Assembly: GCA_937880755.1 (NCBI GenBank)
Contig: CALGRX010000017.1
Coordinates: forward strand, 26,737-90,736
Source of the DNA: an uncultured Clostridia bacterium
Lineage (GTDB): Bacteria; Bacillota; Clostridia; Christensenellales; UBA3700
Direction: 5' to 3'
Length of the DNA stretch: 64,000 nt
How positions within the stretch are numbered: the stretch's first letter is position 1; every line of letters starts with the position of its first letter. Shown here piece by piece: positions 46,995-51,056 of the stretch. The position numbers and the translations under genes are program-made. The notes under the pieces are model-generated. The model saw only the letters and a program-made list of their open reading frames with translations. It was not told the origin of the DNA and searched no databases.

Positions 46995-47372
46995 AGCAAA
47001 TATAACGCCGTAGAAGCGTGATTATGACGCGAATATCTCGCAACAACGCACGTAACGCGACGGTTGCGACCGAAGACTTTGTTTGTGATGGCGTAGTTAT
47101 CGACACGCCCGATTCAATAGTCTAATCGCGGAGTGCGCATATTGACCGAAAGGATGAAAAGGTTGATACGTATCGACTTATCGACGTTGATAGGGCGTTG
47201 TATCGCGAGCAATACGGCGTGATACACGGGGTAAGTTAGACTTTATACAAACAACATACACGTTGCGTTGCGTGTAGTACGACGCCATTGTTCGCAATAC
47301 ATAGGCGTATGGTCAACGATATTGCAAGATATATCGTGCGATAGTATCGAGAATATAACTAGGGGAAGGATT

Positions 47373-48200
47373 ATGCAAGAGTGGAAGATTCAACTTGATA
47401 AGGCTTATGCAAGCTTGAGGGCGCAAGTCGACTTCGAGCCCAAGGTAGGTATAGTGCTCGGCTCGGGATTGGGCGGATTTGCAAACTCTATCGAGGTAGT
47501 CAAGATCTTGCCGTATAGCTTAATCGATGGTATGCCGCTTAGCACCGTAGAGGGACACGCGGGACAATTCGTCTTCGGCTATATAGGTGAGGTTCCCGTA
47601 GTGGCTATGCAAGGAAGACTGCACATGTACGAGGGCTACACTTCTCAAGAGGTCGTAATGCCTATTAGGCTTATGGCTAAGGCGGGGGCTAAGTATCTCG
47701 TAGTTACCAACGCCGCGGGCGGAATAAGCTTTAGAGATATAGGCACGCTTATGCTCATCACCGACCATATATCGAGTTTGGTTGCCTCTCCTCTCATCGG
47801 CACCAACTACGAGGAGATGGGTGTGCGCTTCCCCGATATGACGCACGCATATTCGCAAGAACTTGCCGATATCGCTAAGGGGGTGGCTGTAGAGCATAAT
47901 ATAGACCTCAAAGAGGGCGTATATATGCAATTCTACGGACCACAATTCGAGACTCCCGCCGAAATAAGAATGGCGCGCGCAATGGGCGCGGACGCGGTTG
48001 GTATGAGTACTACGGTAGAGGTAATTGCCGCAAAACATATGGGTATGCAAGTACTTGGAATATCTTGTATCACCAACCCCGCCGCAGGACTGTCGCAAGG
48101 CACGCTGTCGCACGTTGACGTTCAACACGCCGCCGATATAGCCGGGGAGAAGCTGGGACTTCTCATTAGAGAAACGATAAAGAGATTGTCTAGCGAGTAA
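47373..48200 (+). CDS. punA: Purine nucleoside phosphorylase (trimeric PNP family)
   Basis: GIVLGSGLG, VEGHAGQFVFG, QGRLHMYEGY, GADAVGMSTVxE-type block. AGGGGAAGGA SD before ATG 47373. Confidence 0.85.
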   Translation: MQEWKIQLDKAYASLRAQVDFEPKVGIVLGSGLGGFANSIEVVKILPYSLIDGMPLSTVEGHAGQFVFGYIGEVPVVAMQGRLHMYEGYTSQEVVMPIRLMAKAGAKYLVVTNAAGGISFRDIGTLMLITDHISSLVASPLIGTNYEEMGVRFPDMTHAYSQELADIAKGVAVEHNIDLKEGVYMQFYGPQFETPAEIRMARAMGADAVGMSTTVEVIAAKHMGMQVLGISCITNPAAGLSQGTLSHVDVQHAADIAGEKLGLLIRETIKRLSSE

Positions 48201-48302
48201 GGTATTACCACCAAAGTAAATATATACGGTAGCCGACCGCCTATAACAAGCAACCGACTACTTAATAAGCGCGACAAACAATCGACCACCTTTTTGGTCT
48301 TC

Positions 48303-48536
48303 GACAGCGAGTGAATAGCGTAATGCAACAAGTATAATAAGAAGCCGCAAAGTGCTTGACAAACATCGACTACTCTATAGACGCACGACAGCGAGTGCTT
48401 AGCGTAATGCAACAAGTATAATAATAAGCCGCAAAGTGCTTGACAAACATCGACTACTCTATAGACGCACGTCAGCGAGTGCTTAGCGTAATGCAACAAG
48501 TATAATATTAAGAAGTTGCAAAGTGCTTGACAAACA
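48303..48536. repeat. 84-bp tandem repeat, about 2.8 copies (units start at 48303, 48387, 48471), with a degenerate partial copy upstream around 48272
   Basis: Direct reading: GACAGCGAGTG(A/C)(A/T)TAGCGTAATGCAACAAGTATAATAA..GCCGCAAAGTGCTTGACAAACATCGACTACTCTATAGACGCAC repeats with few substitutions. The third unit has a 3-nt insertion. Confidence 0.9.
48334..48533 (-). promoter_or_regulatory. Three tandem promoter-like elements on the minus strand, one per repeat unit
   Basis: On the minus strand: TTGTCA-17 nt-TATTAT (48334-48362), the same (48418-48446), and TTGTCA-17 nt-TAATAT (48505-48533). Hexamers and spacing are kept while the spacer bases vary. Confidence 0.4.
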
Positions 48537-48662
48537 GTCGGCATACGATAAAACAACTTTAATGCGATTGCTCACAATACTACTAAGAAAAGAAAATTTG
48601 TTAGTCAAAGCGACGGCAAATCAATATAAAATCACGCCTAATAATAGACGAAAGGGAAAGCA

Positions 48663-49961
48663 ATGAAGTATAGAATCTACAATGCAAAAATATTGACTGC
48701 CGAGCACGGCTTAATTGACGGAGAAATGTGGGTAGAAGGGGGCAAAATCACCTTTTTGTCACAATGCTCGCCACTTATTCTCAAGCCGTGGGATAGAGAG
48801 ATAGATATGCAAGGCAATCTGGTGATGCCGTCTTTCAAGGACGCGCACGCCCATTCGCCTATGACCTTCCTAAGGTCGTTTGCCGATGATTTACCACTCG
48901 ATAGGTGGCTGTTTGACAAGGTTTTTCCTTACGAAGCTTGCCTTACGGGCGAGGATTGCTATTGGCTTAGTAGACTTGCGATTTTGGAGTATTTGTCTAG
49001 CGGTATCAGCGCAGTGAGCGACATGTACTTCTATTTGGACGACATAGCAGGTGCATTCGTAGACAGCGGTATGCGCAACGTAATTATGGAAGGCATAACG
49101 CAAGGCAACGGACCTAAGGACAAGATGTGGGTAAGGCTAGACGAGGGTAGAAGAAACCTTGACGGCAAGGGCGGACTAATAGAATATAGATTGGGTATAC
49201 ACGCCGAATACACCAACGACCTAAGCAATATAGAAGCATTCGCCGAGTATAGCAAGGTCAACGATATGCCCGTATGTATGCACATATCCGAGACCAAGTC
49301 GGAAGTGGACAACTGTATCAAGAAGTACGGAAAGTCGCCTATAAAACTAATGCACGATATGGGTATGTTGGATAGAGGCGCAACGTTATATCATTGCGTG
49401 CATCTATCCGACGAGGATATAGATATCATAGCGCAAGACGGGGCAAGCGTGGTGAGTTGTCCTGCCAGCAATCTAAAACTTGCAAGCGGTATCGCGCCAC
49501 TAGAAAAGCTTAGGAAAAAGGGCATTAATATAGGACTTGGCACCGACGGCGCGGCTAGCAACAATAGCCTTGATATGTTGAGAGAAACCTATCTTGCAAC
49601 CACCTTGCAAAAGTATCTAAATAACGACGCTTCCGCCCTACCTGCCGACGTTGTGCTCGATATGGCGACAAAGGGTTCGGCTAAGGCAATGGGACTCAAA
49701 GATTTGGACGGACTATACGTGGGCGCGCAAGCCGACCTATGCGTAATCGACCTAAATAAACCTAATATGCGACCTATCAACAATATCGTCAAAAACGTGG
49801 TATACGCAGGTAGCAAAGCCGACGTGTTGATGACGATGGTTGCGGGAAAAATCAAGTATGAAAAGGGCGAGTACTTCGTAGGCGAGAGCGTGGACAAGAT
49901 ATATTCAATGGCGGAGAAAATTACCGCGCGCATCAAAAAGCAAGTCAAATCGGGCAAATAA
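48663..49961 (+). CDS. mtaD: Amidohydrolase, 5-methylthioadenosine/S-adenosylhomocysteine deaminase-like
   Basis: PSFKDAHAHSPMT, GLGTDGAASNNSLDM, HCVHLSDEDI. Confidence 0.75.
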   Translation: MKYRIYNAKILTAEHGLIDGEMWVEGGKITFLSQCSPLILKPWDREIDMQGNLVMPSFKDAHAHSPMTFLRSFADDLPLDRWLFDKVFPYEACLTGEDCYWLSRLAILEYLSSGISAVSDMYFYLDDIAGAFVDSGMRNVIMEGITQGNGPKDKMWVRLDEGRRNLDGKGGLIEYRLGIHAEYTNDLSNIEAFAEYSKVNDMPVCMHISETKSEVDNCIKKYGKSPIKLMHDMGMLDRGATLYHCVHLSDEDIDIIAQDGASVVSCPASNLKLASGIAPLEKLRKKGINIGLGTDGAASNNSLDMLRETYLATTLQKYLNNDASALPADVVLDMATKGSAKAMGLKDLDGLYVGAQADLCVIDLNKPNMRPINNIVKNVVYAGSKADVLMTMVAGKIKYEKGEYFVGESVDKIYSMAEKITARIKKQVKSGK

Positions 49962-50177
49962 TAGCGACAACCCAAGTCCAATAGAAATAGCTGCCAAAAG
50001 TGTGTTTTGCGGACAATCACTAATATGGCTCGAATATAAGCAAAAGTACGACCAACGACTATGATTAAGATAGTATGGCGATGACCAAAAGTGCGACTAG
50101 CGACTAGAATTAAGATAGCGCGATAACGGACAGAAAGCACGGCTTATGAAAAATAAAATAAGCGTGAAACAGTAAAA

Positions 50178-50213
50178 CTTGGCAAAACAACCAAACTTGG
50201 CAAAACAACCAAA
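50178..50213 (+). repeat. 18-bp perfect tandem duplication CTTGGCAAAACAACCAAA x2
   Basis: Read directly from the sequence. It produces the AKQPNLAKQPN repeat in the long version of the next ORF. Confidence 0.9.
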
Positions 50214-50238
50214 CACGATAAGGAAGATTAGTGACCAT

Positions 50239-50727
50239 ATGAGTACTGTCAAAGACAACAAAAAACTAAAAATAGCAATGCTCGTGATAGTTACGCTATT
50301 AGTCGTGACGGCGGTGTTTTTGACGATATTCCTCGTGGAAAAAAACGACAAGAGCAGATGGGAGAAGAGCTATATCGGTCAAGTCAATGACGGTAGCGCA
50401 ATGCAGTGGTCGGTAGCGAGCGTGGACTTTGCAAGGACCATAGACGGCAAGAACGCAAGCGAGGGCAAGATATGGGCGGTGGTGCAGATAGATATGACGA
50501 TGCTCAAGGATAAGACTATCTCCCCTATTGACTTTGAGCTTAGCGGTGTATCTCCCGACACTACGATAGAGAGTTGCCTTGCGAGTAAAATCAAAGCCAA
50601 AAAGGGCGAAACAAAAGTAATTAAACTTGCCTTTGAGGTAGAGGAAAGCGGAGCGGAACTAAAACTGTATTACGGCGAATACGCAGTAAATATTGGCAGT
50701 AGTATGCAAGGCACGCCTATACAATAA
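50239..50727 (+). CDS. Membrane-anchored extracytoplasmic protein (DUF4352-like beta-sandwich)
   Basis: N-terminal TM IAMLVIVTLLVVTAVFLTIFLV. The mature part has a KGETKVIKLAFEV...LKLYYGEY pattern. ATG 50239 is preferred over TTG 50179. Confidence 0.55.
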   Translation: MSTVKDNKKLKIAMLVIVTLLVVTAVFLTIFLVEKNDKSRWEKSYIGQVNDGSAMQWSVASVDFARTIDGKNASEGKIWAVVQIDMTMLKDKTISPIDFELSGVSPDTTIESCLASKIKAKKGETKVIKLAFEVEESGAELKLYYGEYAVNIGSSMQGTPIQ

Positions 50728-51056
50728 ATGTCGAAAAGTCGATACGTATCGCAAATAACACACGTTTAGGTAGTCACGCTATTTGGTGATCGAGTAAATA
50801 TTAGACTTATATAAGTTAATGCGTAATGACGATTATACAGAAAAACGTAAGAGCTTGGTCGACAGACGGATTGGATAAATCACAAGGGTATGCGTCAAAC
50901 GATAAAAAAGTAAAATCGCATACGGCAAAAAATTGAGACTACTTACCATTGACTAACTCAAGTCAAAGAGGTATGCAAAATATTACAAAAACGGTAGTGC
51001 CAAAATAGTGCAATACCAAAGATAACAAAATAACTAGAATTAGATAGGAGCAACAA

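What the first reader, a model, noticed from the sequence alone, without database searches (positions are those of the whole stretch)
48272..48560. 84-bp tandem repeat between punA and mtaD carrying three phased promoter-like elements that point antisense into punA
**Seen.**
- About 2.8 near-identical 84-bp units (48303, 48387, 48471), plus a degenerate partial unit upstream.
- Each unit is itself built from two related ~42-bp halves (AGTGCTTAGCG... and AGTGCTTGACA...).
- On the minus strand every unit keeps TTGTCA, exactly 17 nt, and TATTAT or TAATAT. The spacer bases differ between units, which suggests selection on the hexamers and spacing.
- Because 84 is 28 codons, a 144-codon minus ORF with a thrice-repeated peptide appears. 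It has a TTG start, no SD, and overlaps punA antisense.

**Inference.** This could be an array of antisense or small-RNA promoters, or repeated regulator-binding sites. It could also be a copy-number-variable control region for punA or mtaD.
Basis: seen in the sequence. Interest (0 to 1): 0.6.

Follow-up and report, generated by a model that had tools for sequence, protein, structure and literature searches.

The report
Variable tandem repeat between punA and mtaD
The 84-base repeat between two nucleoside-salvage genes of an uncultured Christensenellales bacterium is a real but ordinary non-coding minisatellite with one to three units in different strains, and the three "promoters" are one chance-level match copied by the duplication.

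Summary
**Observation.** It is confirmed. TRF finds 2.8 units of 84 bp at 48302-48536, plus a half-diverged unit upstream. Each unit has TTGTCA-17-TATTAT or TAATAT on the minus strand.

**What it is.** It is a locus-specific, non-coding VNTR.
- It lies in a spacer that only the four closest species have. More distant congeners have punA and mtaD about 10 bp apart.
- In 25 contigs of conspecific strains the array has 1 unit (13 contigs) or 2 units (12 contigs). Only this genome has 3.
- Copy number is polyphyletic. One 1-unit allele is a chimera of the two units of its sister strain, which is the signature of slippage or unequal crossover.

**What it is not.**
- The 144-codon minus ORF is broken in other strains and species.
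- The unit is unique in the genome, and has no Rfam, phage or plasmid match and no unusual RNA fold.

**Promoter reading.** It is not supported beyond plausibility.
- A 10/12 match arises in about 10% of shuffled spacers.
- The -10 sits in an (ATA)n tract, so 3-nt indels keep it.
- The hexamers vary as much as their surroundings.
- Sister species G002 has no match. G001 and G005 have a sense-strand match at the homologous place.

Interest is low.

The parts
47370..48200 (+). punA, purine-nucleoside phosphorylase (276 aa counted from the ATG at 47370)
   Evidence: NCBIfam NF006054, 343.7 bits against a cut-off of 218. Synteny pyrE-punA-mtaD is conserved across the family.
48201..48662 (+). Lineage-specific non-coding spacer between punA and mtaD (462 nt, 39% A on the sense strand)
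   Evidence: The gap is about 10 bp in G006, G003, G004, G011, G015 and G009, about 200 bp in G001 and G005, 406 bp in G002 and 462 bp here. There is no plus-strand terminator-like site, no Rfam family and no phage or plasmid match.
48229..48261 (-). G.U-rich hairpin that forms only on the minus-strand RNA, followed by a partly U-rich tail (terminator-like)
   Evidence: Free energy is -16.3 kcal/mol with z -3.05 on the minus strand, against -5.7 with z -0.86 on the plus strand. The terminator scan flags it. It is kept in most conspecific alleles, weakened by a 2-nt deletion in L054 and L058, and absent in G002.
48267..48349 (.). Unit u0 (83 nt). Its left half is diverged and carries its own small hairpin GACCA-N6-TGGTC; its right half is near-identical to the later units.
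   Evidence: Unit alignment. It is orthologous to u0 of G002 (local alignment z 6.9).
48302..48536 (.). The young, near-identical part of the array: 2.8 copies of 84 bp
   Evidence: TRF score 401, 93% matches. The unit occurs nowhere else in the 1.5-Mb genome, and the whole spacer gave only two short weak matches, outside this locus, in the 40 relatives.
48334..48362 (-). Promoter-like site 1: TTGTCA-17-TATTAT (10/12, no TG extension)
   Evidence: Consensus scan. Kept in conspecific strains. Chance level about 0.10 per spacer.
48418..48446 (-). Promoter-like site 2: TTGTCA-17-TATTAT (10/12), a copy of site 1
48505..48533 (-). Promoter-like site 3: TTGTCA-17-TAATAT (9/12), a copy of site 1
48122..48556 (-). 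Spurious 144-codon ORF produced by the in-frame repeat
   Evidence: Listed. It is interrupted or frame-shifted in L040, L043, L054, G002, G005 and G001.
48635..48650 (.). Short inverted repeat CGCCTA-N4-TAGACG just upstream of the mtaD ribosome-binding site
   Evidence: CGYCTA-N4-7-TAGRCG is present in all four species with a variable loop (sequences). Flagged on the minus strand.
48663..49961 (+). mtaD-like amidohydrolase (432 aa)
   Evidence: best matches are chlorohydrolase, TRZ/ATZ and 5'-deoxyadenosine or MTA/SAH deaminase models, all below their curated cut-offs. Pfam PF01979 and PF07969.
47165..47174 (.). Degenerate copy of the genus-wide palindrome GATACGTATC, between pyrE and punA
50741..50750 (.). 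Copy of the palindrome (aaaagtcGATACGTATCg) 14 nt after the ORF that follows mtaD. It is the likely end of a punA-mtaD-orf182 transcription unit.

Best explanation
The feature is a locus-specific, non-coding minisatellite (VNTR) inside the untranslated spacer between punA and mtaD. The organism is an uncultured Christensenellales bacterium with a genome of about 1.5 Mb.

**History, shown by comparison**
- The ancestor had punA and mtaD about 10 bp apart.
- The common ancestor of the four closest species acquired a spacer of about 200 bp.
- A segment of about 85 bp was duplicated before this species split from G002.
- In this species the units are still being gained and lost, so strains carry 1, 2 or 3 units.

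**Mechanism, inferred from a chimeric allele**
- Neighbouring units misalign, by replication slippage or unequal homologous exchange.

**Promoter-like sites and ORF**
- The minus-strand TTGTCA-17-TATTAT sites are one moderate consensus match that each duplication copies.
- The long minus ORF is a by-product of unit lengths divisible by three.

**Likely effect, inferred**
- There is no plus-strand terminator in the spacer.
- The genus's conserved terminator-like palindrome appears only before punA and after the gene downstream of mtaD.
- The array is therefore probably transcribed as part of a punA-mtaD message.
- Unit number then mainly changes the length of the untranslated gap, to about 295, 385 or 462 nt.
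- No dedicated function needs to be assumed.
For: **Array**
- It is real and unique in the genome.

**Spacer is lineage-specific**
- The punA-mtaD gap is about 10 bp in six more distant relatives, about 200 bp in G001 and G005, 406 bp in G002 and 462 bp here.

**Copy-number polymorphism**
- There are 25 conspecific contigs, with mtaD 97.5-98.4% identical in protein.
- 13 contigs have one unit (spacer 298-301 nt, 6 alleles). 12 contigs have two units (389-390 nt, 3 alleles). Only this genome has three.

**Recurrent change**
- In a punA+mtaD tree the 1-unit and 2-unit alleles are intermixed.
- L041 (1 unit) is sister to L040 and L042 (2 units), with 99/99 support and 15 differences in 2130 nt.
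- The L041 unit is a chimera of u0 and u1 of L040, with the switch inside the shared GTAGCGTAATG.

**Age**
- G002 has a diverged two-unit structure (u0 against u1, z 12.4).
- Orthology is unit for unit: u0-u0 z 6.9 and u1-u1 z 3.7.

**Not coding**
- The minus ORF is broken elsewhere.

**Not a known or structured RNA**
- Rfam gives nothing.
- Fold z-scores are -0.9 on the plus strand and -0.5 on the minus strand.

**Promoter match is chance-level and not conserved**

**Other arrays**
- The genome holds 13 other intergenic arrays with periods of 36-128 bp.
- The ten whose units were compared are unrelated in sequence to this one.
Against: - No transcript data could be consulted. An active promoter on either strand is therefore not excluded.
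- TTGTCA-17-TATTAT has the optimal spacing and the most important bases (TTG, A2, T6). It is the best promoter candidate in the spacer.
- A hairpin that forms only on the minus strand (z -3.05) lies just downstream of it, as a small-RNA terminator would.
- A two-unit structure has persisted since before the split from G002. That could hint at constraint.
- All the strain data come from short-read metagenome assemblies, which can collapse tandem repeats.
Confidence: 0.7

Rival explanations
1. This is an antisense or small-RNA promoter array. Each unit carries a working sigma-A-type promoter on the minus strand. Transcripts start near 48327, 48411 and 48498, run leftwards and stop at the minus-strand hairpin 48261-48229, before punA. 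The product would be a non-coding RNA of about 105-280 nt, complementary to the punA-mtaD spacer RNA. Its dose would rise with unit number.
For: - The match is 10/12 at the optimal 17-nt spacing, with TTG, A2 and T6 present.
- It is kept in 14 of 15 units of conspecific alleles and seen again in a strain locus.
- A T-to-C change common in strains removes the plus-strand TATAAT but leaves the minus TATTAT intact.
- The downstream hairpin is strand-specific: -16.3 against -5.7 kcal/mol, z -3.05. Two strain substitutions keep its pairing on the minus strand only.
Against: - One such match is expected in about 10% of shuffled spacers, and there are 1053 genome-wide.
- There is no TG extension.
- The hexamers are no more conserved than their surroundings, and the -10 is regenerated by the (ATA)n tract.
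- G002 has no promoter-like or terminator-like site. G001 and G005 have none at the homologous place on that strand.
- The hairpin is weakened by a 2-nt deletion in two alleles and is absent in G002.
- Its tail is only partly U-rich.
Confidence: 0.15
2. This is a sense-strand promoter or regulatory repeat for mtaD. The unit would descend from an internal promoter that arose with the spacer. Unit number would tune mtaD transcription, like the promoter tandem repeats of M. tuberculosis.
For: - G005 and G001 carry sense-strand TCGTCA-16-TATAAT (10/12) and TCGCCA-16-TATATT (9/12), about 75 nt (from the end of the -10 hexamer) upstream of mtaD.
- L055 strains keep it.
- In the alignment its -10 is homologous to the plus-strand TATAAT in each unit here.
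- An AT-rich box GTATWATAA is kept between the G000 and G002 units.
- Copy-number-variable promoter repeats of 57 bp and similar sizes are documented in M. tuberculosis (PMC12817950).
Against: - In this species no sense-strand site reaches 9/12 in the spacer.
- The plus TATAAT has no usable -35: the homologous GCGAGT lies 20 nt away.
- The plus TATAAT is CATAAT in about half of the strain units.
- The perfect plus TTGACA has only TATAGA at 14 nt or TAAAAC at 16 nt, both lacking the conserved final T (read).
Confidence: 0.11
3. This is an assembly artefact. The three units here, or the 1-unit and 2-unit forms elsewhere, would come from mis-assembly of short reads.
For: - All sequences are short-read metagenome assemblies.
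- Read-level checks were impossible.
- The three-unit form is seen only in this genome.
Against: - The units here differ from each other at several positions and by 3-nt indels, so they are distinguishable.
- The 1-unit and 2-unit forms recur in 25 contigs assembled independently from about two dozen samples, with lineage-specific SNPs.
- The contigs run through the array without breaking.
Confidence: 0.03
4. The 144-codon minus ORF encodes a real repeat protein.
For: There is an open frame of 144 codons with a thrice-repeated peptide.
Against: - It has a TTG start and no ribosome-binding site, and it is antisense to the punA 3' end.
- The frame is broken or shifted in three conspecific alleles and in all three sister species.
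Confidence: 0.01

Closest known systems
Bacterial intergenic minisatellites or VNTR loci, of the kind used for MLVA strain typing (own knowledge; examples in PMC3689786, listed but not read)
   Same: - Head-to-tail units of tens of bases.
- Non-coding and locus-specific.
- Copy number differs between close strains.
- Changes are explained by slippage or unequal exchange between units.
   Different: Nothing essential. It is simply an undescribed locus in an uncultured Christensenellales species.
MIRU, the mycobacterial interspersed repetitive units (Supply et al. 1997, as summarised in PMC3184786)
   Same: - Units of 40-100 bp in tandem.
- They lie between genes of one operon and are transcribed within the polycistronic message.
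- They are absent from the homologous site of relatives.
- Copy number is variable.
   Different: - MIRUs are one sequence family dispersed at about 40-50 loci, whereas this unit occurs once in the genome.
- MIRUs carry small ORFs that overlap the flanking genes' stop and start. No conserved ORF exists here.
Promoter tandem repeats of M. tuberculosis at dop, lpdA and cysG (PMC12817950)
   Same: - Tandem units of similar size (57 bp at dop) containing promoter elements.
- They lie upstream of a gene.
- Copy number is polyphyletic among strains.
   Different: - There, the repeated promoters are mapped by transcription start sites and face the downstream gene.
- Here, the only good consensus match faces away from mtaD, is at chance level, and no transcript data exist.
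REP/BIME and MITE-type intergenic repeats (PMC3184786)
   Same: Small non-coding repeats in spacers between co-directional genes.
   Different: - Those are dispersed palindromic families.
- This unit is not palindromic, has no significant fold and is not dispersed.

Membership tests
Bacterial intergenic VNTR or minisatellite | Head-to-tail copies of a unit of about 10-100+ bp | tested here: met
   TRF finds period 84, 2.8 copies and 93% matches.
Bacterial intergenic VNTR or minisatellite | Copy number differs among strains of one species | tested here: met
   Alleles with 1, 2 and 3 units occur in 26 sequences (25 contigs plus this genome). They are polyphyletic on the flanking-gene tree.
Bacterial intergenic VNTR or minisatellite | Non-coding | tested here: met
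   The minus ORF is broken in other strains and species. The plus ORF 48523-48666 is stopped at its third codon in all nine strain alleles, read.
MIRU-type interspersed minisatellite | The same unit is dispersed at many loci of the genome | tested here: not met
   Only this locus matches in the own genome. The whole spacer gave no homologous locus in 40 relatives, only two short weak matches (E about 0.006-0.008) outside this locus. It is unrelated to the ten other arrays compared.
MIRU-type interspersed minisatellite | Lies between cistrons of one operon and is co-transcribed | tested here: inconclusive
   The genes are adjacent, about 10 bp apart, in relatives. No plus-strand terminator-like site lies in the spacer. 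Transcription itself could not be tested.
MIRU-type interspersed minisatellite | Small ORFs in the unit overlap the stop and start of the flanking genes | tested here: not met
   No conserved ORF exists on either strand.
Promoter tandem repeat (as in the M. tuberculosis dop promoter) | Each unit holds a promoter with a mapped start site that drives the downstream gene | not testable with these tools
By sequence, no sense-strand site reaches 9/12 in the spacer.
Promoter tandem repeat (as in the M. tuberculosis dop promoter) | Recurrent copy-number change among lineages | tested here: met
Cis-antisense or small RNA gene | Promoter and terminator conserved together in related genomes | tested here: not met
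   Both are kept within the species, except that the hairpin is weakened in two alleles. Both are absent in G002 and are not at the homologous place or strand in G001 and G005.
Cis-antisense or small RNA gene | A transcript is detected | not testable with these tools
Known RNA family (riboswitch, leader, sRNA) | A match to an Rfam covariance model | tested here: not met
   The best match is uxuA at 18.5 bits against a gathering score of 66.8, E 4.5.
REP/BIME or MITE | Palindromic or terminal-inverted-repeat unit, dispersed in the genome | tested here: not met
   Unit folds are no better than shuffles, with z between -1.1 and +2.0. The unit is single-locus.

The most novel reading that the evidence does not exclude
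The array is a strain-variable battery of one to three antisense promoters.
- They would make a short non-coding RNA ended by the G.U-rich, minus-strand-only hairpin at 48261-48229.
- This RNA is fully complementary to the untranslated punA-mtaD spacer of the sense message.
- It could direct cleavage or block read-through.
- Unit number would then set the punA:mtaD expression ratio, acting as a heritable and reversible dosage knob for nucleoside and methylthioadenosine salvage in a small-genome gut bacterium.
Probability: 0.1. Interest if true: 0.5.

Novelty: new member of a known kind. Interest (0 to 1): 0.17.

Why it matters
- **Strain marker.** As it stands, this is a useful marker with alleles of 1, 2 and 3 units for an uncultured Christensenellales species.
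- **Operon loosening.** It is a clear example of a tightly coupled gene pair (punA and mtaD about 10 bp apart in relatives) being pulled apart by a lineage-specific spacer that then grows by tandem duplication.
- **If unit number affected expression.** It would join the promoter tandem repeats recently described in M. tuberculosis as a case of copy-number phase variation, here in a commensal anaerobe.
- **Caution for sequence-only reading.** Phased promoter-like hexamers in a young tandem repeat are inherited by copying and are not evidence of selection.

Tried and rejected
**Rejected readings**
- **Protein-coding minus ORF.** The frame is broken in other strains and species.
- **Plus-strand ORF 48523-48666 overlapping the mtaD start.** The inner ATG frame reads ATG CGA TAG in all nine strain alleles.
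- **Known RNA family.** Rfam finds nothing at E up to 10.
- **Structured RNA.** The whole spacer folds with z -0.9 on the plus strand and -0.5 on the minus strand. Single units fold no better than shuffles.
- **Dispersed repeat family.**
  - The own genome has no second locus.
  - The spacer gave only two short weak matches, outside this locus, in 40 relatives.
  - Exact-core scans of genome contigs and metagenome contigs gave no hits.
  - The apparent resemblance to the 118-bp array on contig 3 is not significant.
- **Mobile-element origin.** There is no phage or plasmid similarity.
- **Two related 42-bp halves.** Only a shared 7-9-mer is found.
- **GTGCTTGACA as a recurrent promoter word.** Most of its other 14 copies appear to lie inside coding sequence, judged by eye from their context.
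- **Operator CGWCTA-N5-TAGWCG inside the unit.** It occurs nowhere else in the genome.
- **Rho-dependent polarity.** rho is present, but the spacer is A-rich and not C-rich, with C/G 1.1. This remains an unsupported idea only.

**Searches that gave nothing or were closed**
- The search for related loci in metagenome contigs returned only distant relatives.
- The exact mtaD protein of the window is not on record.
No transcript or read-level evidence could be obtained.

Full report
**1. The observation**

The sequence at 48267-48537 is a tandem array.
- Tandem Repeats Finder gives one row: 48302-48536, period 84, 2.8 copies, 93% matches, score 401.
- The repeat finder shows the same three copies and a diverged upstream copy.
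- I used the register that begins AAG(T/C)GC. In it, the units are u0 48267-48349 (83 nt), u1 48350-48433 (84 nt) and u2 48434-48520 (87 nt), followed by a terminal stub.
- The left half of u0 is different and has its own small hairpin. Its right half is nearly identical to the others.
- The 144-codon minus ORF is there.
- The flanking genes are a purine-nucleoside phosphorylase, matched above its cut-off, and an amidohydrolase. The amidohydrolase matches MTA/SAH deaminase-type and chlorohydrolase models, all below their cut-offs.
- The claim that each unit consists of two related 42-bp halves does not hold. The halves share the word (A/G)AGTGCTT and nothing else (P = 0.64 without that word).

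**2. Where the spacer came from**

Public sources label close relatives of the mtaD protein as Christensenellales or Clostridia MAGs. The genome held for the window has 1.5 Mb in 23 contigs.
- The order pyrE-punA-mtaD is conserved across the family.
- In six more distant relatives (G006, G003, G004, G011, G015, G009) the punA stop and the mtaD start are about 5-16 bp apart. That is the ancestral, operon-like state.
- Only the four closest species have a spacer: about 200 bp in G001 and G005, 406 bp in G002 and 462 bp here.
- The four spacers are homologous but fast-evolving.
- TRF finds no repeat in G002. Even so, its spacer holds two diverged units of about 88 bp (u0 against u1, z 12.4).
- These units pair one-to-one with those here (u0-u0 z 6.9; u1-u1 z 3.7; cross pairs are lower).
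- The first duplication therefore predates the split of the two species. The near-identical units here are young copies or have been homogenised.

**3. Copy number varies among strains**

The 90% cluster of the mtaD protein has 57 members.
- I fetched 25 contigs of conspecific strains, with mtaD 97.5-98.4% identical.
- Counting the stop and start codons, the spacer is 298-301 nt with one full unit in 13 contigs (6 alleles).
- It is 389-390 nt with two units in 12 contigs (3 alleles), and 468 nt with three units only here.
- On a tree of punA+mtaD the two states are intermixed.
- L041 (one unit) is sister to L040 and L042 (two units), with 99/99 support and 15 differences in 2130 nt.
- The single unit of L041 carries the u0-type bases up to GTAGCGTAATG and the u1-type bases after it. 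That is what a deletion by misaligned pairing of neighbouring units leaves.
- This is the behaviour of a VNTR.
- The caveat is that all the data are short-read assemblies and I could not lay reads. However, the alleles recur across about two dozen independently assembled samples with lineage-specific SNPs.

**4. What it is not**

- **Not a gene.** The minus ORF is frame-shifted or stopped in L040, L043, L054, G002, G005 and G001.
- **Not a known RNA.** Rfam gives no hit at E up to 10 apart from noise.
- **Not a structured RNA.** The spacer folds no better than shuffles on either strand (z -0.9 and -0.5), and so do single units.
- **Not a dispersed element.**
  - The unit is unique in the genome.
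  - The spacer found no homologous locus in 40 relatives, only two short weak matches elsewhere.
  - It is absent from two public collections as an exact core.
  - It is unrelated to the ten other arrays compared.
  - It has no phage or plasmid similarity.

**5. The promoter question**

The minus-strand site is a fair candidate: 10/12, 17-nt spacing, with TTG, A2 and T6 present. The argument for selection fails on four points.
- A match of at least 10/12 appears in 10% of dinucleotide shuffles of a one-unit spacer, and there are 1053 such matches in the genome. The three sites are copies of one event.
- The -10 lies in an ATAATAATAAGAAG tract, where the observed 3-nt indels regenerate TATTAT at 17 nt. 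Keeping the hexamer while the spacer changes therefore needs no selection.
- Over 15 units from 10 alleles, the hexamer columns vary about as often as the other shared columns. Examples are TTGACA to TTGATA in one unit and ATAATA to ATATTA in another. This is my count by eye on the alignment.
- The site is not conserved. G002 has no promoter-like or terminator-like site on either strand.

G005 and G001 instead have a sense-strand site, TCGTCA-16-TATAAT and TCGCCA-16-TATATT. Its -10 aligns with the plus-strand TATAAT of the units here. In this species, however, that plus-strand box has no usable -35 and reads CATAAT in about half of the strain units.

One point favours the antisense reading.
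- A hairpin at 48261-48229 forms only on the minus strand (-16.3 against -5.7 kcal/mol, z -3.05).
- It is followed by a partly U-rich tail, where a terminator for a short minus-strand RNA would be.
- Two strain substitutions keep its pairing on the minus strand only.
- Against it, two alleles weaken it by a 2-nt deletion, and G002 lacks it.

I rate an active antisense promoter at about 0.15 and a sense promoter or regulatory repeat at about 0.11.

**6. Most likely working**

Shown:
- The array is a non-coding, strain-variable tandem duplication in a lineage-specific spacer.

Inferred:
- It arises and changes by slippage or unequal exchange between units.
- It is probably part of a punA-mtaD(-orf182) message, for these reasons:
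  - The spacer has no plus-strand terminator-like site.
  - The sense strand is A-rich and T-poor, as is the spacer after mtaD; the pyrE-punA spacer is much less so.
  - The genus's conserved terminator-like palindrome occurs before punA (47165) and 14 nt after the gene downstream of mtaD (50741), but not between punA and mtaD.
- Unit number then changes the length of the untranslated gap. It also changes the number of copies of whatever weak signals the unit holds.
- I found nothing that requires a selected function.

**7. Comparison with known systems**

- It meets every defining feature of a bacterial intergenic VNTR.
- It works like a MIRU in position (between cistrons, absent from relatives' homologous sites, variable). 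It fails MIRU membership because it is not a dispersed family and has no ORFs that overlap the flanking genes (PMC3184786).
- It resembles the promoter tandem repeats of M. tuberculosis in unit size and in polyphyletic copy number (PMC12817950). The defining mapped promoter facing the downstream gene could not be tested, and the sequence does not suggest one.

**8. Verdict**

It is a new member of a known kind, and interest is low.

Earlier notes of this scan on other Christensenellales and gut genomes reached the same kind of verdict for similar arrays. I did not use them as evidence.

Noticed in passing
window 47165-47174 and 50741-50750; genome-wide list: A 12-nt perfect palindrome, CGATACGTATCG, occurs 28 times in this 1.5-Mb genome, and its core GATACGTATC occurs 37 times. 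About 0.1 copies are expected by chance. It is usually embedded as AAAAAGTCGATACGTATCGACTTTTT, and the outer stem bases co-vary (gtc/gac, ctc/gag, gcc/ggc). It lies mostly just after gene 3' ends or between convergent genes. It is genus-specific: 27-28 copies in G000, G001, G002 and G005, 16 in G006, 6 in G003 and G004, and 0-2 in 34 genomes outside the genus. It looks like a bidirectional terminator with a conserved core. Why the core is conserved is unexplained; possibilities are a protein site, an uptake-sequence-like signal or spread by copying.
   Followed up: partly
own genome G000, for example C2:84721-84825, C2:105391-105499, C3:3988-4245, C3:5555-5787, C8:106975-107103, C13:15748-15873, C13:59834-60108, C19:4601-4776, C21:1-234, C21:9209-9353: The 1.5-Mb genome holds 13 other tandem arrays with periods of 36-128 bp that lie outside long ORFs. 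The ten compared are unrelated in sequence to the punA-mtaD unit. This lineage seems prone to intergenic tandem duplication.
   Followed up: partly
G000 C2:132154-132393, C14:16675-16919, C20:43535-44128: Three of those arrays share a composite unit (…ATATGCGTCGCAATAC…GTCGAGTTTGCGGTAGCGTGTCGGTCAC… and …CCTCACTCTCCTTGTCTTGC…CATCTCCACCGTCAAA…) in opposite orientations. They form a small dispersed family of tandemly repeated elements. Two of them abut a copy of the GATACGTATC palindrome (read directly). In addition, the 9-mer CGCAATGAC occurs 80 times against about 11 expected and recurs in several other arrays.
   Followed up: no
window 46995-51056, and loci L031-L036 and L019-L021: Spacers in the pyrE-punA-mtaD cluster have expanded stepwise within the genus. 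The pyrE-punA gap is about 20 bp in G003 and G004, about 160 bp in G006 and 378 bp here. The punA-mtaD gap is about 10 bp, then about 200, 406 and 462 bp.
   Followed up: partly
window 48635-48650, and the same place in L031, L032 and L033: An inverted repeat CGYCTA-N4-7-TAGRCG lies directly upstream of the mtaD ribosome-binding site in all four species that have a spacer. Its loop length varies. One species has a wobble that works only on the plus strand (G005), and this genome has one that works only on the minus strand. G001 and G005 also have the overlapping palindrome TAGACGTCTA. It may be a small regulatory hairpin or an operator.
   Followed up: partly
window 48523-48666 (+): A 47-codon plus-strand ORF (34 codons counted from the inner ATG at 48563) ends in an ATGA overlap with the mtaD start. 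This looks like translational coupling, but the inner ATG frame reads ATG CGA TAG in all nine strain alleles, so the ORF is not real.
   Followed up: yes
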